Assembly: GCA_009914755.4 (NCBI GenBank)
Contig: CP068257.2
Coordinates: 40,864,001 to 40,928,000, forward strand
Source: the human T2T-CHM13v2.0 reference genome, Homo sapiens
Reading direction: 5' to 3'
DNA: 64,000 nucleotides
Part shown: positions 18,797-51,557 of the stretch, in pieces
Position numbering within the stretch: the first letter of the stretch is position 1
Layout: each line of letters starts with the position of its first letter
The notes under the pieces: generated by a model
The model's input: only the letters and a program-made list of their open reading frames with translations
The model's database searches: none
Told to the model about the DNA's origin: nothing
Made by a program: the position numbers and the translations under genes

Positions 18797-19469
18797 CTGG
18801 GTAATGAAAATTGACACAATTACAGCTACCATTCATTAAGCGCTAACCAGGTGCTAAGCATTTTGTAAATATCATACCCTTGAGTCATCCCACTATGCTA
18901 AACCCCCGGCACTATACTCAATTGTCCCACCTTTCCCACCTTAAAGTTGAGGTAGGTAACAACGCCTGGGCTAGATGAGGCACTGGACCAAGGCCACACC
19001 CCAGCACATGTCCAGGGCGGAAGCCTCATTCCCTCCCTCCAACACAGAGCTTGCAATTCATTGTGATAATCCTTTACCCTGTAAGCAAGGTTAACCAATT
19101 TGTGAAAAATGCTAGATACTCTAAGCTGTGTTCTTAGTAGGAACATGCTTGAAATAGTACATGCGGGTAGAACAGTTCAAGTCCACACAAATACCTCCCC
19201 GTTTGCTTCCTTCAGTAATCCAGGATTTCAAAGGCAAATGCCCAGAGAGAAGCAACTCTTCCCTCAAATGATCCCTGGGGCGGGGTGTGGCCTGAAGAGA
19301 CCTTTGCCCTGCAAGGAATTTCCGATGGAAGGGACAGGTTGGAGGGCACTGAGGAGTACACAGGGCTCCCTTGCTGATTAAGTTTATCTTATTTTTAAGA
19401 CCCCTAGCAAGAGACTTAAGGTTCGAACACTCATGACCCAATGCTGCAATAATTATGTATCTATCTGTG

Positions 19470-20413: not shown

Positions 20414-20747
<334 letters not shown>

Positions 20748-21849
20748 TAGTAAAGAGGGCAGGGAAGTAGACATGAAAGGGCAGGCAGCTAAGGAAGGAT
20801 GCCTTTGCAGGTGAAGTCCCAGACTTGGCCTAATCCAACAGGGACTCTGGGGGCATCAATCGCACTGCAGACTTTGTCCTGCTTCTTGCACTAGCTACTG
20901 GCTGTCTGGCCGGATGTGAATTTCAGGCACTTCTGGCTCTCCATACTGGGCAGGTAGTTCCAGCGCACAGAGGTGATAGCTTGAGTAGCAAATCAGGCGG
21001 AAGCTGGGAGATGAGTGCCCAGAGCTAGCAAAAAGGTCTGGGCAGGCACTGACAGCACCACTGCAGAGTCGCTAGATTTTTCAGTTAATTCTGAAAGTAC
21101 CTCAACTCTGTACTGTGCATGCAGACCATAGTGGCTGAGGTTCCCTACCTGTCAGCCATGGAGAGGTCACTCTCTGGAGTAGGGAGGAACTACTCTCTGG
21201 GTGATAGAAATATTCCCACACAGAACCCAGCTCACAGGCTGGATGTGCCCTCTTTCTCCTCTCTGCTGCCTAACTCAGGAAATAACTCCAAAGACCTGGG
21301 TCAGTTCAGATGGGGACTGAAGAAAGCACATGTGAGGATACGCCTATAAGGTAATATCTTCAGGAACCCTCTCCTGAGCCCAGGGCCTCCTCAGCATTTC
21401 TTGGAGGCTGCCAGGAAGCAACTATCCTCCATGCATCTAAATGCCGGGGGAGCAAATCTCAGCTACAGAAATGACTTATTCAAGGGCAGTATGGCAGCGT
21501 GGGATGATCTGCTCATCCGAGAAAACTGCCTCGATGGGAATTAACACAGGGAGGAGGAAACTTCCAAAGCCTTCCGCTGGGAAATCTTTGCCTTTAATGG
21601 GAGGCAGGATGGGGGTGGGGGAAGAACGAGGCGGCATGTGGTAACCAGACGTCACAGCGTTTCACTTTTCACCATCAACTTCCAGGACGCACGCAGGTGT
21701 GTCTGGCGTGGCCTTCGTCCCTGCCGGGGATCCTGGGGAGCTGTGGCTCAGACCTCTGGTTTCTGCGCCTCCTCACTCTCCAAACCCAACCTCGAGGTTC
21801 CCCCGCCGCTGCGCACCCTGGGAAGCCCTTTCTCACCAGGAGCTCTCAC

Positions 21850-21903
21850 CCCAATATCATTCTCTCCCTCCTCCTCCAACTCCTCCGAGCCCAGGTCCGA
21901 CAT
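21850..21903 (-). CDS. RSPH1: RSPH1 exon 1, coding part: MSDLGSEELEEEGENDIG. The 5'UTR continues to roughly 21950-22000.
   Basis: The reverse complement reads ATGTCGGACCTGGGCTCGGAGGAGTTGGAGGAGGAGGGAGAGAATGATATTGGG followed by gtgagag. The exon lies inside a CpG island. Confidence 0.88.
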
Positions 21904-22064
21904 GGTCTCGCCCCAGCCTGGATCACAGCCGCAGCGCCTCTAGCAGGTGGGTAGCAACCGCCTCCACCGCCGCGTCCCGCGTCGCCATGGAGACGCGGCC
22001 GGTCCCGCCTCCCTCCCAGCCCGGAAGATGGGGAGCGGGGACAGGCGACGCGGACGAAGCGGGA

Positions 22065-22251
22065 GGAGCCACTGGCAGCCTTTGCGTACTGTCATAGCAA
22101 CGGGAAGGGCACCTCGACCAATCACCGCCCGGGAATACGGAGGGGCGGGGCGGAAGGGACGAGGTGGAGCCAGTGGCAGCACTCTGGTGCCGTCATAGCA
22201 ACGAGGGGCCGCTTCGGCCAATCACTGCTCGGGAAGCGAGGGGGCGGGGAC
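22065..22251 (+). repeat. Tandem duplication (2 x ~87 bp, period ~101 bp) of a promoter module: ggagccaNtggcagc...gtcatagcaacg...gNccaatcac...ggggcgggg
   Basis: Direct alignment of 22065-22151 with 22166-22251. Each copy carries a CCAAT box, a GC box and the TAGCAAC motif. Confidence 0.8.
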
Positions 22252-25200
22252 TGGGCAGGGCCTGAGCGGGTTCTGTGCCTGGCTGCCCACCGGCTCTCTG
22301 ACCTGGACCTCGCCGTCGCTGGCCCCTGAAATCCATCACTTTTGTCGGCTGTTCTGTGACGCCACAACGAGGAGCCACCTGGGTACTGGGCCCTCAAGAG
22401 GAAGGACGCGGGAAACGCGTCCGGGCCAACTCTCGAGAGGGTTTCACCCCTGCCCAGTGCGGGCACTGCCCGCTCCCTTCCGCCCCCAGGCCTCGCAGGC
22501 CCCTCCGGGGGTGCTGCCCACCCCCACTTACCTTTCTAGGCTCTGCTGACCCTTCGGGATTCGCGGCTAGCTGTGATGTGTCCGCCAAGATCTCTTCTCT
22601 TGTCTGTAAACAACTTCACTCTCAAGGAGGCAGCTCTGGCCTCTCAGCAGGTGCGGCCTACAGTGATGTCCGTCCGGGTTTTACATCCTTCCCCGACCTC
22701 GACATGAGTCCCAGCCCCCTCGGGCCTCTGACTCTCAGGTGTCCCCTACGATCGCCGTCCTCTCCTCTCGCTCCTGGCTCCCCTACACTGTCACACACCC
22801 ACACAATCACAGACGCACACGCATGTACACGTGCAGGCTTGGAAATCTGCTTTACCTGACGCACTCCGCCTGCCGAAGGCCCCTCACATCTCCCATTTCC
22901 TCTGCCATCATCCCAGACTGCAAAGCTGTGTTATTTGTTGTTGCTGCAGGAGCTGGGGAGGAGTGACTGAATAACTATAGGATTTGGTCTTGATGGGAGA
23001 ATCCCAGAAGCCAAATCCACGCGGTGAATAAGCTGCTGATCTTCCAGAGCACACATCCCCTAGAGATTCTTCCCAATGCTAATATGAAAGGTTACAACCA
23101 TAACCCATCATCAGGCCCAAATATATTACTTACTGAATAAATACACAAGTTACAACAACACACGAGATTCCAAAATTATGTCGTTTTTTAGATGCAAAGA
23201 TAAAAATGTTGTAAACACCAAAATTTAACAGCTTTTCTTATGGGGAAAAGTGGGGAGTTAGGGATAACAGATGATTATTATTTTCTTCTCTACATATTGG
23301 CAGTTACCCAGTTACTACAATTAAGCATGTCCTATTTTTATAATAAAATGCCAGAAGCATTTTAAATGTTAGAAATCTAGAATGGTAACATAAGTATATG
23401 CAAATAAATACTCGTTTTTTACATTTAAAATGTCAGAAATTTAGCTTTCAAATTTGTCCTAACAATGACAGTAACCAGTGTTTACTAAGTTCTGACACTG
23501 TGTGTGGGCACTGTTTTAAGAATTTTATGAGTTATCTTATTAAATCCTCACTATCATTCCTCCATTGAACATCTAAGGAAAGGGAGTTATAGGGGGTTAT
23601 AAACTAAAAATAACCTCCTAAGCCCCACCACAGCCAACTGAATGGACCCCTCTTGGCCAAGAGGGCCCCAGAAACCTTAAAAACTGCGTTCTCAGCCATG
23701 ATGGGAAGGGAGGTCGAACATGCCTCACTAATACCCTTGTGCAGTTTAGACACAACAACTAACAAGCATTAATGTTAAAATAGAGATCATAAGACTGACA
23801 GAATGGACGCTGTGGCAGTAAGATACCAACTTACAAACAGGACCTAAGGCCATGCCAGGCATGAGTTAAGTCATGCATCCCTACACTTAAAAGAATAAAC
23901 TATATTTTAACTACCTGGAGAAGGTCTTATGACTCGTGTTTTACATCCTGTACTTGAGCAAACAATCTTACTGTGAATCTCTCAAATCGTATCATGAGTT
24001 CCTCAGACTGTTGATGTACTAATTAATACGTAAACTACTGACACTGAAAAGGATACTGATTTGTTTCTGAATCATGACGTTTCACTGATTGTCTTGTGCA
24101 TATGCAGAAAACATTTTAGCCTGTATGTTGTCATCTGTAGCCAATGATTGTAACCTCTATATTGTCCCTCCAATGAAAAAAGACAACTGCAATATGAGGA
24201 GTCCCCTTCCCATTCCTCAACTTTCTTATAAAAGCACTGCAACTTGTAACAGACTTTGGAACACACCCAACTTTGTTGGTGTGTCTTCCCCATTCAATCT
24301 TCAAATTTGGCTTTCAATAAGCCTTTATCAATTTCCGCCTCAACAGCCTTAACTTTGGTCGACAGCAGTTAAGATCCTTACCCAAGATCATACAGCTAGT
24401 GGGATTCAAATCAAGCCAGCTGACCCAAGAGCAACTGTTGCCCATCACTATACTGCCTCCCAGATCTGTGATATAAAGAAATAACTATAGTTTTCTGGCA
24501 GTGACTAAACCATCTACCAAGCAGAGGACCACTAGTTCAAATGCCTTGGATTGCAAACACCAGAGAGTGGCTTAAGCAAACCACATGGTTAAGCAAACCC
24601 TGTTCTGGATCACATCATTAGCAGCTAGACGTCTAGCTATAGCTATTAAATCCTAAGGTTTACAATTTGATTTCTATCCCATACGAATTAGCCAGGGTCT
24701 TCCCTCCCAAATCTTTCAGTCAATCTATAGTAATTTCACCACACTGTGGGTTTGGCAATTATCCAAATAATTGACACCAAAGGCAAGAAGGGGTGAACAA
24801 CAGGATGGGCCTCCCGGCATCTCCTGCAGCAGCACCTGGACTGGATTCTAAATTCCTCCTTCCAGAAAGAAGCTGCATCCCAGCCCAGATCCAGCTGAGA
24901 GCCACAGCTGCCAAGAGGCAGTCGGAGCTCTGGGCACCTCTCTGTGCACCCAGGAAGCCCCAGGAGGACTTCATCAAGCCAAGTCGATGCCTCACTCAGA
25001 GCCCCAGGATCCCTGACTCCTAACCCCACAGTGACCTGGAAATGCCTGGTGATGCCAGAAGCAGCGCTTTCCAATTCTGAAGGCCCTCAAAATGCTTGTT
25101 CAGCCCACCTTCCTCCTTTCCTGGGGCGTGGGAGTGGTGGGGAGATGAGAGGCAGAAAGATGAGGACATCATCAGGAGGTTTTTCCTTACTGGAAAATGA

Positions 25201-25350: not shown

Positions 25351-26049
25351 GGAAGTTCGCGCAAGTGCGGCTCTGCAGGGAGGAGGGAGGGCCGAGGGGA
25401 AGGCCCTCGAGAGAGTGGAGGGCAACAGTGGCCACGGTTCCTCTGTACTTCGTTTCTTCCGTAAGAAATGATCTTCTTGTCCTTCTTAAGTATAAATGGA
25501 GCGATCCATTTCCTTTTACCCATTAACCCCTTCAAAAAGAAGAAAAACAGTCCCAGGCTGGCCATGGTTGATCTCTGCAGGGGGGCTGGTCAGGGTGCCT
25601 TCTGCTTCCTGGTGGGATGGCCTAGGCCGGGGAAACTGTTGAAACCACCCTGGGGCTGCCTTCTGTATTTTCCACAACCTTCCAGGCCCACCTCCCAGCT
25701 GGAGGCCCTGCAGCTTGGCAGTTGCCATGGCGACTGAGTCCCTAAGTGTGTCTCTTCTGAGCTCTCCTGGACAGTGTGGAGAAAAGGCCTTAAGAACTGA
25801 GGGGCTTCAGTAAAATGCAAACAGATTTTTTTTTTGTAGGCACTGTTCAGATAAAAAGCAGGGACTTTCAACAAAATGAGTTCAGGTCCATCTTAACTAT
25901 AGAACTATGAGGTTGTTTATTAGAATAATTGTACTCTGGTAAATTTACCAATTTCATATATATGCATATTTATAAACAAACATATTAGAGTATATAGATA
26001 GAAAAAGTTCTATCTACATGTAGAATCGAAAACTTTTTAAAATAGTGTT

Positions 26050-47985: not shown

Positions 47986-50900
47986 CATATCATCCAAAAC
48001 ATCTGCTTTATAAATGATAAAGAAAACGTAGATAGAATTACGAAATAAGAAAGGACTTCGGGAGGGCTGTTTGGCTTCTGGGGGTTTGAGCCCATCCATG
48101 CTGCAGAGTGAAGCGTCTGCCTACCCAGAGGCCAGGCGTATCGGGGTGACAACCAGCAAGGCAGCGGCCCGAGTGTGGCTGCCGCGGTTTAGCAATAGTC
48201 ACGGGAGCTGAAGTCAGACCTTTCAAAGAGGAAAGTCTAGCCTCCAGCCACTGCGTCCCCCATCCCCAAGCCCCAAGTCCTAAGTACAGAAGATGAAGAA
48301 ATGAGAGAGGAAAGACGAATTTGGAAATAGAAGTAGAGTTGGCCTGACACCAGCTAAATAAATACAGCGTTTTCCTCTTCAGTCTTTAGGGACATTCCAG
48401 TTTGCTGTGTAAATGGACCCTTCACCCAATTCTACAGGATGGCTTCTGTCAGCCTGGCTACACCGTGGCAGTGACTCTTCCCAAAGGGTCTCATTCATTA
48501 AGGTGTCTCCCTCCACACAAGGCTGAACTAAAGGTTCCAGAGGCATGTGCTGCCCCTTGTGTGCTCCTCAGTGTTCTCAGGGCATCTCTAGGCGTGTGCT
48601 GTGAGCACCAGCCGGGAGTCACCCCGCAGAGGAAGGCAGGAGCCCAGAACGCATCACCAGGGCCTGATCACCCAAGCAGCCCTGACCATTGGGAACGCGG
48701 TGTGTGTCGGGGCCTCAGCACTCTTCAGACCTCAGCCCGACAAAGGGAGACAGCCTTCCTTCTGGGCTGTCTGGGTGGAGAGTGGAGATGTGAACCCACA
48801 GCCCATAGGACAGAGCTGCTCTTCTCAAAATCCTTCCTAGCTGGGTGATAACACCTGTAGAACTGGCACTGTGGATGGAGAATCCTCCTGCATGGAGCAG
48901 GAGAGATGGTCCATGGACTTGTCTGAGACTGGGGAGGTGCTGGAGGCAACTTGGCCTGAGAACTTTGTTCACCTGTTTTGAGGAGATTGGAGAAGGAAAC
49001 CCTGTACTCCAGTGAGGGCCGATCAGGGTCACCCATCAGCCTTACTTGCCCTAGTCAGCTCCAGCAGGTGGGGTGGAAGTGACCAGTTTGTCAAGCTGTG
49101 GGCTGGACAAGTGAGCATTGAGGGCCGGTGAAGCCCAGTGGCCTGGAATCTTCCTGCACCAGCAGTCGAAGGCGTGAGAAGCAGTGGTGGCCTAACAGAG
49201 AGCTTCATCCAAAGCGCTGAGACTTTCTTTCCTTGCCAGAAAGGATGGTTTTCAGAAACACGAGGACAGAGGCCGGGGCTTCTGGAGCAAATCCACTGTA
49301 CCCACATAGCCTTTGTTCTTTGGGCTTTGGGATAAATGATAGGCTCGCCTTTTAGGGTTTCGCTTTTTTCCCATTTGGCCCTTGCCATGGGCTTGGAGAG
49401 GAAGAATTGGAGAAAGGCCATTGGAAGATAGTTCCCTGATGAAGAAGAGAGCACTGGGGAATTTCTGTCTTCAGTCAGCAGGTATTCTGCGAGTTGGTTT
49501 GGTTTGGTTCCTTCCCCAAAGGCACAGGCATTCCAAAGGTTGTAGTTTTGTGTCACACGGAGCCACCAACCTTTCTTTCCCACCTGAAATATGGCCTTTT
49601 TTTTTTTTAAGAAAAATCTGGAAATATTTATTTGACCCCTACTTTAGCTGGTGACCAGAGAAGAAGGCAGCTCTGGGATCCTAGGATTTTAGTTACTTGT
49701 GGAAAGCTTCCCTCGGAGTAAATCACAACATTAAAAATGTAGATGCGCAGCTGGGAGAAGCAACCCCTTATCCCAGGGACTCTCGGAAACGCTGCCTTTC
49801 TTTGTCCTGTGTAGGACGCCACCTTAGGTAATTATTGATTCAGGTTGTTGGTGGCGCCATTTGAAGTCTCTTCCCAGGCCACAAGCAGGACAGGTTCTCC
49901 AGGGTAGGGAGATGTGCCTAGGACACAGAAGAGCTGCCCCTCGCCTTCCACTCCTGTCAAATACTTCTTTCTCCCAACCCATTTTGTTGCCCCAAAAAGT
50001 ATTTTTCTATGCGGTGGTTGAGACTCTTAGACTGGAGTTGCCCTTTGTCTTCTTTCTAAGGCACCTTCTTTTCTTCTTTCTTCCTCACACTCATGCTGAC
50101 TCTTTCGGCTGCTTTTCTCCCAGCCAAACTGAGCGAGGGGCTTTGTACCAGTGTTTCTGTCACTGGCCTATTGAGAGCCTGCCAGCGTCACTGCCTTTTT
50201 CTCTTTGAGGGCCGTGAAATATTTATATGTCTGCCTTGCTTGTGTGCTTCTGAAAAGTTGCATAGAAACCAAAGAGCCAAAAATAAATATGATCTTAATT
50301 GCCCAGGATAGCAGGCTACGCCAGAAACTTGTGGTTAGTTTTGTTGTAAACTAAACATTTCATCGTGCTTGTTCTGCTTTGTAAACTCAAGTGTGCATCT
50401 CGAGTCCCAGGTTTCCCTTTGGTTACGGTTTCTTTAAATAGATGAATGCTTTTGATATTGTGACGTAATAATAAGAAACATGCTTTTGGTCTCTGGCCCT
50501 GGTTCTGGGCACACAGCTCCTACAACCTTTAGTGCTGAGTGTCTTTTTGTTTGCTAATGAGGTGACTGTGGCGGGCCCCAGGACAACCTCCTGGGGGACT
50601 GGTTGCCAGGGCAACCGACCACGTGATTAGAGGTTGGGACTCCACCCGTGGACCTCTGGGGAGGGGAGGGAGCCCGCAGAGGTGGAGTGGATCACCAGTG
50701 GCCGGTGTTCTGCTCGATCGTGCCTGTGTAATGAGGCCTCCACAGACTCCCTCAACGACAGCGTTTGGGGGCTTGCAGGCTGCTGAGCACGGGGAGGTTC
50801 CCGGAGGGTGGAGCCCTGGCGAGGGCACAGCAGCTCCGAGCTCCCTGCCCCATACCTCGCCCTGTGCATCTCTTCATCTGTATGTATTCTTTGTAACATC

Positions 50901-51475: not shown

Positions 51476-51557
51476 GTACAGAGCCTTCATTTTTATTTTG
51501 ACATTTCTGCTGTATGCAAGTTTTCACTTATCTCGAAAGCCTATCAGCATAGTTAAG
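51476..51557 (+). CDS. SLC37A1: SLC37A1 coding exon 2: (W)YRAFIFILTFLLYASFHLSRKPISIVK (first TM helix of the MFS sugar-phosphate exchanger)
   Basis: Acceptor ttttgtgtttcag|GTACAG and donor GTTAAG|gtaaga. The phase joins TG|G = Trp from exon 1. Confidence 0.88.

What the first reader, a model, noticed from the sequence alone, without database searches (positions are those of the whole stretch)
22065..22251. Tandem-duplicated CCAAT / GC-box / TAGCAAC module in the RSPH1 bidirectional CpG-island promoter
Two ~87-bp copies at period 101 bp each carry an NF-Y-type CCAAT box, an Sp1 ggggcgggg box and gtcatagcaacg. A third ggtagcaacc lies in the RSPH1 5'UTR at 21948-21957. TAGCAAC fits the RFX half-site RGYAAC. 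RSPH1 is a motile-cilia gene and such genes are typically driven by RFX/FOXJ1, so the duplicated module may be a cilia-specific enhancer unit. The opposite-strand SLC37A1 transcript may start in the same island.
Basis: partly seen in the sequence, partly recalled or inferred. Interest (0 to 1): 0.55.

Follow-up and report, generated by a model that had tools for sequence, protein, structure and literature searches.

The report
Repeated NF-Y/RFX cassette in RSPH1 promoter
The promoter of the human motile-cilia gene RSPH1 carries two old tandem copies of a rigid 60-bp cassette (CCAAT box, RFX-type half X-box, a third box) that is conserved across placental mammals in one to five copies, which makes it a real but fairly ordinary piece of promoter architecture.

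Summary
Window 22062-22162 and 22163-22263 are two tandem copies with a period of 100-101 bp and about 78% identity (BLAST E=5e-11; z=21 against shuffles). They lie in the CpG island directly upstream of RSPH1 exon 1.

The duplication is not recent or neutral. Macaque, lemurs, meerkat, rabbit and armadillo also have repeated copies. Copy number varies from 1 (gerbil, sheep, tenrec) to 5 (rabbit).

Each copy holds a rigid cassette: ATTGG, then 15-16 nt, then GTTGCYATGAC, then GGCTCC 30-32 nt after the X-box start. The three boxes are 90-93% conserved, against 74% for the spacers. The GC boxes are looser in both sequence and spacing.

The X-like element is a strong RFX half-site, not a palindromic X-box. 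It is identical in 8 of 10 placentals sampled and is the better candidate for RFX1-3 binding. The third TAGCAAC site is confined to catarrhine primates.

Mouse Rsph1 carries an RFX2 ChIP-seq promoter peak in testis, but its expression does not change in Rfx2 knockouts.

My best reading is a cooperative NF-Y/RFX/Sp promoter cassette. Cilia specificity, actual occupancy and transcription start sites were not testable here. Interest is moderate to low.

The parts
22062..22162 (-). Module copy P, the copy nearer the RSPH1 ATG. Read in RSPH1 sense it runs GC box, inverted CCAAT, X half-site, GGCTCC box.
   Evidence: It is 96% identical to macaque, 84-87% to meerkat and 84% to rabbit, but only 78% to its human paralogue.
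22163..22263 (-). Module copy D, the copy farther from the RSPH1 ATG.
   Evidence: It is 93% identical to macaque. The primate-wide signature ATTGGCCGA (copy D) versus ATTGGTCGA (copy P) is shared with both lemurs.
22116..22125 (-). Y box of copy P. Reads GACCAATCAC on the + strand and GTGATTGGTC in RSPH1 sense. Candidate NF-Y site.
   Evidence: The Y-box columns are 93% conserved over 17 copies in 9 species.
22216..22225 (-). Y box of copy D (GGCCAATCAC). Candidate NF-Y site.
22089..22101 (-). X-like element of copy P. Reads GTTGCTATGACAG in RSPH1 sense. It has a strong RFX half-site (GTTGCT) and a degenerate second half.
   Evidence: Conservation is 90%, it always lies 15-16 nt after ATTGG, and it has 4 mismatches to the palindromic consensus.
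22190..22202 (-). X-like element of copy D. Reads GTTGCTATGACGG in RSPH1 sense.
22065..22079 (-). Third conserved box of copy P. Reads GCTGCCAGTGGCTCC in RSPH1 sense. Its GTGGCT fits GTNRCY, so it may be a weak second RFX half-site or an Sp/KLF-type GGCTCC(G)CCC element.
   Evidence: TGGCTCC is 92% conserved and starts 30-32 nt after the X-box start in 16 of 17 copies.
22166..22180 (-). Third conserved box of copy D. Reads GCTGCCACTGGCTCC in RSPH1 sense.
22142..22150 (.). GC box of copy P (GGGGCGGGG). Candidate Sp1/KLF site.
   Evidence: It is changed to GGAGCGGGG in macaque, and its spacing to the Y box varies from 13 to 32 nt among copies.
22241..22249 (.). GC box of copy D (GGGGCGGGG).
21981..21994 (.). 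Near-palindromic X-box. Reads GTCGCCATGGAGAC on the + strand and GTCTCCATGGCGAC in RSPH1 sense, 78-91 nt upstream of the ATG.
   Evidence: 3 mismatches to consensus; identical in 8 placental loci, one change in Otolemur, and replaced by GTTCTCCTAGGCAAC in tenrec.
21950..21959 (-). It is specific to human and macaque and is probably not part of the conserved system.
21850..21903 (-). RSPH1 exon 1 coding part (MSDLGSEELEEEGENDIG). It anchors orientation and distances.
21700..22550 (.). CpG island that contains all the elements above.
   Evidence: GC 0.675, CpG o/e 0.69

Best explanation
The interval is the core of the RSPH1 CpG-island promoter. It contains two ancient tandem copies of a rigid composite cassette.

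**Anatomy, read in RSPH1 sense.** Each copy has an inverted CCAAT box (GYGATTGG). A strong RFX half-site (GTTGCYATGAC) follows 15-16 nt later, about two helical turns centre to centre. A GTGGCTCC box starts 30-32 nt after the X-box start, about three turns. Loosely spaced Sp/KLF GC boxes flank the cassette.

**Proposed mechanism (inferred).** NF-Y binds the Y box and helps an RFX protein occupy the adjacent half-site from the same face of the helix. Sp1-family factors keep the island open. Repeating the cassette raises occupancy and gives robustness. The repeat number drifts by unequal exchange between the GC-rich unit ends, so mammals carry 1 to 5 copies. The cassettes probably act together with the deeply conserved near-palindromic X-box 78-91 nt upstream of the ATG, which is the more likely docking site for RFX2/RFX3 dimers in ciliated and male germ cells.

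**Shown.** The duplication, its age, the conservation of the boxes and the fixed spacing.

**From the literature.** RFX2 occupies the mouse Rsph1 promoter, and Y boxes are enriched at RFX1-3 sites.

**Inferred.** Which proteins bind which box, cooperativity, and any effect of copy number on output.
For: - **Duplication is real:**
- **Duplication is old:** it is present in macaque. Copies are found only at the orthologous promoter position in 9 placental species, with none elsewhere in about 350 kb of fetched loci plus window.
- **Paralogues are diverged:** human copy P is closer to the meerkat, rabbit and lemur copies (82-87%) than to human copy D (78%).
- **Boxes are conserved:** Y 0.93, X 0.90 and TGGCTCC 0.92, against 0.74 for spacers.
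- **Human versus macaque:** 0 of 76 box positions differ against 9 of 108 spacer positions, p=0.007.
- **Spacing is fixed:** Y-X is 15-16 nt in all 17 copies, and X to the third box is 30-32 nt in 16 of 17. GC box to Y varies from 13 to 32 nt.
- **X-box variation fits RFX tolerance:** changes fall at positions RFX tolerates (GTTGCC/GTTGCT, ATG/AGG), while GTTGC is kept.
- **Palindromic X-box:** it is conserved once per locus at -64 to -98.
- **Mouse Rsph1:** it carries an RFX2 ChIP-seq promoter peak within -500 to +50 in testis (PMC4498915).
- **Y-box enrichment:** the Y box is enriched in common RFX1-3 peaks in ependymal cells, and the authors propose X-Y cooperation (PMC7498320).
- **Precedent:** the RFX/CREB/NF-Y enhanceosome evicts nucleosomes and positions the TSS at MHC-II promoters (PMC2677874).
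- **Sp1 motif module:** RSPH1 falls in an Sp1-motif cilia co-expression module (PMC5514134).
Against: - No occupancy data for the human site were available.
- The ChIP-seq entry is for mouse and does not say which X-box is bound.
- The gerbil, the closest proxy for mouse, has only one cassette.
- Rsph1 is not differentially expressed in Rfx2-/- testis.
- The module X element is only a half-site, with 4 mismatches to the palindromic consensus. This is the published preference of RFX5/RFX7 rather than RFX1-3.
- Otolemur has lost the X element from both units, and Microcebus from one. The X half-site is therefore dispensable in at least one lineage.
- Copies are related by descent, so part of the conservation and spacing is inherited rather than independently maintained.
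- The TSS positions are unknown here. An orangutan gene model reaches into copy P, so part of the cassette may be transcribed.
- All motif assignments rest on consensus matching. No curated PWM library was available.
Confidence: 0.6

Rival explanations
1. The cassettes are RFX5/RFX7-type X-Y modules. A non-palindromic X half-site next to a CCAAT box would recruit RFX5-RFXAP-RFXANK or RFX7-ANKRA2 together with NF-Y. This would give broad or stress/immune-linked basal activity, possibly for the divergent SLC37A1-side transcript. Cilia and testis specificity would come from the separate palindromic X-box and a forkhead site.
For: RFX5 and RFX7 bind the half-site CCTAGCAACA, often near CCAAT boxes, whereas RFX1-3 prefer the palindrome (PMC11344851 and PMC8287911). 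The module reads CATAGCAACG in human and CCTAGCAAC in gerbil. It fails the palindromic consensus at 3 mismatches or fewer. On the + strand the box order (GGAGCC box, TAGCAAC, CCAAT) points towards SLC37A1, as S-X-Y points to the TSS in MHC-II genes.
Against: The geometry differs from the MHC S-X-Y module. The CCAAT pentamer is inverted relative to TAGCAAC, the gap is 16 nt rather than about 28 nt (the HLA-DRA sequence is from my memory), and there is no CRE-like X2 box after X1. I could not find RSPH1 or SLC37A1 in any accessible RFX7 target table because no supplements were held. Several species have GTTGCCATGAC, which is closer to the RFX1-3 palindrome.
Confidence: 0.2
2. The TAGCAAC element is not an RFX site. 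It would instead be read by another factor, for example A-MYB/MYB (YAACKG overlapping CAACGG) in spermatocytes, or MEIS/TGIF on the adjacent TGACAG. On this reading NF-Y and Sp1 are the main activators of a generic CpG-island promoter.
For: CAACGG or CAACTG, which fit YAACKG, are present in 10 of 17 copies by my reading. TGACAG is present in most copies. RSPH1/TSGA2 is a meiotic and post-meiotic testis gene, and A-MYB is upstream of RFX2 in that programme (PMC2797782, listed but not read). Rsph1 is unchanged in Rfx2-/- testis.
Against: The MYB consensus is lost in 7 of 17 copies, including human copy D, whereas GTTGC is kept in 13 of 17 and differs by one base in the other four (sheep, rabbit -267, armadillo -230, tenrec). 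The conserved core spans GTTGCYATGAC, which is longer than a MYB or MEIS site. Variation follows RFX degeneracy. The mouse promoter is RFX2-bound.
Confidence: 0.12
3. The duplication is a neutral by-product of slippage in a GC-rich island, and the motif matches are chance hits of short, common consensus sequences.
For: The single motifs are at or near background frequency in the window. Copy number differs freely among species, and some copies have lost the X element.
Against: The cassette is retained at the orthologous place in nine placental species from six orders (primates, lagomorphs, rodents, artiodactyls, carnivores, xenarthrans) plus an afrotherian. The boxes are much better conserved than the spacers, and the spacing is fixed. 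The composite pattern is expected 0.00 times by chance.
Confidence: 0.03

Closest known systems
MHC class II/I S-X-Y (SXY) enhanceosome module (RFX5 complex, CREB, NF-Y)
   Same: It is a composite of an RFX half-site-type X box and an NF-Y Y box, plus a third upstream box, held at fixed helical phasing close to the TSS. The precedent shows cooperative RFX/NF-Y binding, nucleosome eviction and TSS positioning (PMC2677874). A gene can carry more than one module, as with S-Y and S'-Y' at HLA-DRA.
   Different: The Y pentamer has the opposite orientation relative to TAGCAAC. The X-Y gap is 16 nt rather than about 28 nt. There is no X2/CRE box in the expected position. The third box (GGAGCCA) does not match the S box. 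The copies are in direct tandem. The gene is a cilia/testis gene with no known CIITA or NLRC5 dependence.
Palindromic X-box promoters of ciliary genes (RFX1-3; DAF-19 in worms)
   Same: RSPH1 is a motile-cilia gene, and a conserved 14-nt inverted repeat (GTCTCCATGGCGAC) sits close to the start of the gene, as is typical for RFX2/3 targets (PMC4498915). Mouse Rsph1 is RFX2-bound.
   Different: The duplicated module itself does not contain a palindromic X-box, only a half-site. Even the palindrome has 3 mismatches to GTTGCCATGGCAAC.
RFX7/RFX5 target promoters with X-box plus CCAAT box (for example PDCD4, MXD4, RFX5)
   Same: They have a non-palindromic X half-site with a nearby NF-Y CCAAT box in a proximal CpG-island promoter.
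   Different: Those papers report no defined spacing that I could compare with. RSPH1 is not among the targets I could check. The expression pattern is tissue-restricted rather than p53/stress-responsive.
Homotypic tandem promoter repeats with CCAAT/Sp1 boxes in bidirectional CpG-island promoters
   Same: CCAAT and GC boxes are repeated about 100 bp apart in a CpG island that probably fires in both directions.
   Different: The repeat unit here is a conserved multi-box cassette with lineage-variable copy number, not just scattered CCAAT and GC boxes.

Membership tests
CpG-island promoter of RSPH1 | GC above 0.5, CpG o/e above 0.6 and length above 200 bp, directly upstream of exon 1 | tested here: met
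   GC is 0.675 and CpG o/e is 0.69 over 21700-22550. Exon 1 ATG is at 21903 on the minus strand.
Bidirectional promoter (RSPH1 / SLC37A1) | Two divergent TSSs less than 1 kb apart | not testable with these tools
   SLC37A1 coding exons lie on the + strand from 44156. No TSS, CAGE or cDNA data were available. An orangutan RSPH1 gene model reaches window-equivalent 22084.
NF-Y Y box (CCAAT box) | CCAAT pentamer with RR upstream and C/G-A/G downstream flanks | tested here: met
   GACCAATCA and GGCCAATCA match RRCCAATCR.
NF-Y Y box (CCAAT box) | Evolutionary conservation of the pentamer and its flanks | tested here: met
   CGATTGG columns are 93% conserved over 17 copies, and there are 0 human-macaque differences.
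NF-Y Y box (CCAAT box) | NF-Y occupancy in cells | not testable with these tools
   No ChIP data were accessible.
Palindromic X-box (RFX1-3 dimer site) | 14-nt inverted repeat GTNRCC-N0-3-RGYAAC / GTTGCCATGGCAAC | tested here: not met
   This row concerns the module elements. They have 4 mismatches and are not recovered at 3 mismatches or fewer. Only the GTTGCY half is intact.
Palindromic X-box (RFX1-3 dimer site) | The same feature, applied to the element at 21981-21994 | tested here: inconclusive
   It has 3 mismatches to consensus, a level reached by chance about 4 times in the window. However, it is identical in 8 placental loci and replaced by another X-box-like sequence in tenrec.
Palindromic X-box (RFX1-3 dimer site) | RFX occupancy of the promoter | tested here: inconclusive
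   Mouse Rsph1 is marked ChIP-Seq = yes for RFX2 in testis but is not differentially expressed in the knockout (PMC4498915 Table S1). The data are for the mouse orthologue, are not resolved to a box, and there are no human data.
RFX5/RFX7-type half-site X box with CCAAT box | Non-palindromic CCTAGCAACA-like half-site with a CCAAT box nearby | tested here: met
   CATAGCAACG lies 16 nt from CCAAT in both copies. The definition is from PMC11344851.
RFX5/RFX7-type half-site X box with CCAAT box | RFX5 or RFX7 occupancy or dependence | not testable with these tools
   No supplements were held for the RFX7 paper.
MHC S-X-Y module | S, X1, X2 (CRE-like) and Y boxes in conserved order, orientation and spacing | tested here: not met
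   There is no CRE-like box after TAGCAAC. The Y pentamer is inverted relative to HLA-DRA, and the gap is 16 nt rather than about 28 nt. This is direct reading against the HLA-DRA sequence recalled from memory.
Sp1/KLF GC box | GGGGCGGGG core, conserved | tested here: inconclusive
   The core is present in both copies, with 5 in the window against 0.44 expected. One is disrupted in macaque, and position relative to the Y box varies from 13 to 32 nt.
Polymorphic tandem repeat (VNTR) | Copy number varies within the human population | not testable with these tools
   No population data were available. Between species the copy number varies from 1 to 5.

The most novel reading that the evidence does not exclude
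The Y - 2 turns - X - 3 turns - GTGGCTCC cassette is a dedicated enhanceosome distinct from the MHC S-X-Y module. In it NF-Y would lock an RFX protein onto a half-site and a second weak half-site (GTGGCT fits GTNRCY). The cassette arose in the placental ancestor from a single perfect X-box, of the kind the opossum has (GTTGCTATAGCAAC). Its copy number has since been repeatedly expanded and trimmed, tuning RSPH1 dosage between species. If the same geometry recurs at other motile-cilia or testis promoters, it would define a grammar for RFX1-3/NF-Y cooperation, which has so far been reported only as motif co-enrichment.
Probability: 0.15. Interest if true: 0.6.

Novelty: new member of a known kind. 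Interest (0 to 1): 0.35.

Why it matters
RSPH1 is a primary ciliary dyskinesia gene, and I found no paper describing its promoter (no hit for 'RSPH1 promoter'). Three things follow from this work.

- **Variant interpretation.** A map of the conserved boxes tells clinicians and geneticists which non-coding positions are likely to matter.
- **A test case for X-Y cooperation.** The fixed Y-X phasing gives a concrete, testable example of the cooperation between X and Y boxes that Lemeille et al. (2020) proposed for RFX1-3 from motif enrichment alone.
- **A natural experiment.** The 1-5-fold copy-number differences between mammals show how tandem amplification of a composite site affects promoter output.

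None of this overturns current understanding. It is a well-behaved example of known promoter logic.

Tried and rejected
- **TRF.** Default-type scoring did not detect the duplication because the copies are too diverged. The repeat finder and alignment did detect it.
- **Recent human duplication.** Rejected, because the duplication is present in macaque and beyond.
- **Dispersed repeat or transposon fragment.** Rejected within the data held. BLAST of both copies against the window plus 10 orthologous loci hits only the orthologous promoter positions. No Repbase-type library was available.
- **Structured RNA.** There are no Rfam hits in 20500-24000.
- **One-to-one orthology of human and non-primate copies.** The NJ tree and pairwise identities are unresolved. 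Human copy D is closest to the meerkat proximal copy and human copy P to the meerkat distal copy. I therefore cannot say whether the duplication predates the placental radiation, recurred independently, or was homogenised by gene conversion. Only orthology within primates is supported.
- **Descent of the module X element from the opossum perfect X-box.** The local alignment is not significant, with a score of 23 against shuffles of 16.9 +/- 2.7 and a maximum of 28.
- **More species from host contamination in metagenomes.** A scan for the conserved X-box-to-ATG pattern found nothing.
- **TSS from the gene span.** The last RSPH1 exon and the poly(A) site lie outside the window.
- **Cluster of CCAATCA at 14.8-15.1 kb.** It is a (GTTG)n-type simple repeat, not a promoter.
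- **YY1 (ATGGCG core) for the palindromic element.** This was considered. The tenrec keeps an X-box-like sequence but loses ATGGCG, which favours RFX, though on a single species.
- **Literature.** Rsph1 was not found by name in Lemeille 2020 (the apparent hits are Rsph14 and Rsph10b), nor in the supplements held for Chung 2014. The supplements of Lemeille 2020 and of the RFX7 paper are not held.

Full report
**What the window is.** tblastn with the human RSPH1 protein finds seven coding exons on the minus strand. The first coding exon, MSDLGSEELEEEGENDIG, ends the series with its ATG at 21903. SLC37A1 coding exons lie on the + strand from 44156. The interval 21700-22550 is a CpG island with GC 0.675 and CpG o/e 0.69.

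**The observation.** The repeat finder reports a direct repeat at 22062-22102 and 22163-22203 with spacing 101. Gapped alignment extends it to about 90-100 nt at about 78% identity (BLAST E=5e-11). The adjacent-block alignment score is 73, against 16.6 +/- 2.7 (maximum 34) for dinucleotide shuffles. Each copy carries four elements at the stated places: GGAGCCA[C/G]TGGCAGC, GTCATAGCAACG, G[A/G]CCAATCAC and GGGGCGGGG. The composite GATTGG-N14-17-GTTGCYATG occurs twice in the window against 0.00 expected. The individual short motifs are close to background.

**Comparative evidence.** I retrieved the RSPH1 locus with upstream flank from ten other mammals, using orthologous proteins and their encoding contigs.
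- Macaque has both copies.
- Anchoring on ATTGG shows the same unit in every placental sampled, always within about 150-650 bp of the ATG and nowhere else in the loci.
- Complete units number 2 in human, macaque and meerkat. There are 4 plus one truncated in rabbit and 3 in armadillo.
- Gerbil, sheep and tenrec have 1, and the tenrec unit is degenerate. Mouse lemur has 1 plus one truncated, and Otolemur has two truncated units.
- The opossum has no such unit. It has a perfect palindromic X-box, GTTGCTATAGCAAC, at L007:2667-2680.
- Within primates the two units are orthologous. They share the signature ATTGGCCGA (distal) versus ATTGGTCGA (proximal) in human, macaque and both lemurs.
- Human copy P is more similar to the meerkat (84-87%), rabbit (84%) and mouse-lemur (82%) copies than to human copy D (78%).

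The duplication is therefore old. Orthology between orders is unresolved, so I cannot distinguish one ancient duplication with later gains and losses from repeated independent duplications or gene conversion.

**Anatomy of the unit.** An alignment of 17 complete copies gives this consensus in RSPH1 sense: CCCCGCCCC ... CTTCCCGGGCG-GCGATTGG-yCGAGGCGCCCTTCCC-GTTGCTATGACAG-(about 12 nt)-TGCCAGTGGCTCC-gCCC.
- Conservation to consensus is 0.93 for the Y box, 0.90 for the X element and 0.92 for TGGCTCC, against 0.74 for spacer columns.
- Between human and macaque there are 0 differences in 76 positions of these three boxes, 2 in 18 GC-box positions and 9 in 108 spacer positions. For boxes versus spacers, Fisher p=0.007.
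- The ATTGG-to-GTTGC gap is 15 or 16 nt in all 17 copies.
- The distance from X start to GGCTCC is 30-32 nt in 16 of 17 copies. The GC-box-to-Y distance ranges from 13 to 32 nt.

The conserved object is thus a rigid cassette of about 60 bp, with three boxes roughly two and three helical turns apart and loosely attached GC boxes. The truncated copies in lemurs and rabbit look like deletions between GTTGCT and the similar GTGGCT 31 nt downstream. These deletions leave GTGGCTCC at the X position.

**What the X element is.** The second half, GACAGY, is degenerate. The 14-mer has 4 mismatches to GTTGCCATGGCAAC and is not recovered at 3 mismatches or fewer. Variation among copies (GTTGCC/GTTGCT, ATG/AGG) falls at positions RFX tolerates.

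According to the literature, RFX1-3 prefer the palindrome. RFX5 and RFX7 bind a half-site, CCTAGCAACA, often next to CCAAT boxes (PMC11344851, PMC8287911). The Y box is also enriched in peaks shared by RFX1, RFX2 and RFX3 in ependymal cells, and the authors suggest X-Y cooperation there too (PMC7498320). The architecture is not the MHC S-X-Y module. The Y pentamer has the opposite orientation relative to TAGCAAC, the gap is shorter, and no CRE-like X2 box follows X1. This comparison uses the HLA-DRA sequence from my memory.

A near-palindromic X-box lies at 21981-21994, 78-91 nt upstream of the ATG. It reads GTCTCCATGGCGAC in RSPH1 sense. On its own it is a weak match, with 3 mismatches, a level reached about four times by chance in the window. 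However, it is identical in eight placental loci. It has one change towards consensus in Otolemur and is replaced by GTTCTCCTAGGCAAC in tenrec. RFX2 sites in testis targets are 14-nt inverted repeats very close to the TSS (PMC4498915). This element is therefore the better candidate for RFX2/RFX3 dimers. The third TAGCAAC at 21950-21959 exists only in human and macaque.

**Occupancy.** The only direct evidence I could reach is Table S1 of Kistler et al. 2015. Mouse Rsph1 is marked ChIP-Seq = yes, meaning an RFX2 peak within -500 to +50 of the TSS in testis. It has no differential expression in Rfx2-/- testes at P21 or P30. A motif-based study places RSPH1 in an Sp1-motif cilia co-expression module (PMC5514134). 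No paper in the library contains the phrase 'RSPH1 promoter'.

**Mechanism.** I commit to a cooperative NF-Y/RFX/Sp promoter cassette, repeated in tandem, acting together with the TSS-proximal palindromic X-box (confidence about 0.6).
- *Shown:* the duplication, its age, selective conservation of the three boxes, and rigid spacing.
- *Inferred:* the identities of the bound proteins, cooperativity by helical phasing, nucleosome exclusion by analogy with the MHC-II enhanceosome (PMC2677874), and any effect of copy number.
- *Rivals:* an RFX5/RFX7-type module (0.2), a non-RFX reader such as MYB or MEIS at the X element (0.12), and neutral duplication (0.03).

**Limits.** No TSS data, no human ChIP or ATAC data, no curated PWMs, no repeat library and no population data were available. 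The orangutan Gnomon isoform X1 (P0003) has a predicted CDS that maps up to window 22084. This suggests that some transcripts start within or upstream of copy P. It is an automated model in another species.

**Verdict.** This is a real, conserved piece of promoter architecture in a known cilia gene. It is a new, well-documented example of X-box/Y-box promoter logic rather than a new kind of element. Interest is 0.35.

Noticed in passing
window 25721-25734: A near-perfect palindromic X-box, GTTGCCATGGCGAC, with 1 mismatch to consensus. It lies 3.8 kb upstream of the RSPH1 ATG on the SLC37A1 side, outside the CpG island (CpG o/e 0.25). Together with the site at 50602 this makes 2 such sites against 0.01 expected. 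The macaque orthologue reads GTCGCCATGACAAC (RSPH1 sense) within a block that is 96% identical. It could be a distal RFX-bound element.
   Followed up: partly
window 50602-50615: A second near-perfect X-box, GTTGCCAGGGCAAC (1 mismatch). It is in an SLC37A1 intron, about 0.9 kb before the coding exon at 51477.
   Followed up: no
window 22500-22690 (forkhead-like GTAAACA at 22606-22612; splice donor at 22526-22535 read on the minus strand): A block 600-790 bp upstream of the RSPH1 ATG is conserved from primates to sheep and tenrec. It contains a forkhead-type site: TTGTTTAC in human, TGTTTGCAAACA in tenrec and TTTATAAACA in meerkat. It also contains a conserved RSPH1-sense splice donor, AGAAAG|GTAAG. 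This suggests an upstream alternative first exon and a possible FOXJ1 input outside the duplicated module.
   Followed up: partly
L007:2667-2680 (Gracilinanus, 334 nt upstream of the annotated ATG): The opossum promoter has a perfect palindromic X-box, GTTGCTATAGCAAC, and no CCAAT cassette. A link to the placental module X element is tempting because both begin GTTGCTAT, but it is not statistically supported.
   Followed up: partly
L002 about 2700-2790, L008 about 2730-2850, L003 about 2840-2900: Truncated cassette copies in mouse lemur, Otolemur and rabbit. In Otolemur (proximal copy) and rabbit the junction (CCCGT|GGCTCC) fits a deletion between GTTGCT and the similar GTGGCT 31 nt downstream. 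This points to recurrent microhomology-mediated loss of the X element, and it leaves a GTNRCY-like hexamer at the X position.
   Followed up: no
window 2460-3009: A 41-bp GC-rich minisatellite of about 12 copies at 81-91% identity. It sits in an RSPH1 intron and abuts the 3' end of the coding exon at about 2992-3159.
   Followed up: no
window 274-348: An exact tandem duplication of a 38-bp unit, CAGCGCTCAGGGGAATTACCGATCACGAAAGTCTATGC, at 100% identity, in the last RSPH1 intron covered by the window.
   Followed up: no
window 14706-15133: A (GTTG)n-type simple repeat of about 430 bp. It produces six CCAATCA matches on the minus strand and inflates the NF-Y consensus count for the window. It is not a promoter.
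   Followed up: yes
window 22084-21849 and 19077-18931 (minus strand): The orangutan Gnomon isoform X1 (P0003, 399 aa) translates the RSPH1 5' region in another frame, from a start equivalent to window 22087. It also uses an extra exon at 18931-19077. This hints at transcripts that begin inside or upstream of module copy P.
   Followed up: partly
window about 22126-22136 and 22226-22236 (CTTCCCGGGCG in RSPH1 sense, immediately 5' of each Y box): An additional block next to the Y box is 81% conserved across copies. I could not assign it to any factor. ETS, E2F and ZNF143 consensus sequences do not fit well.
   Followed up: no
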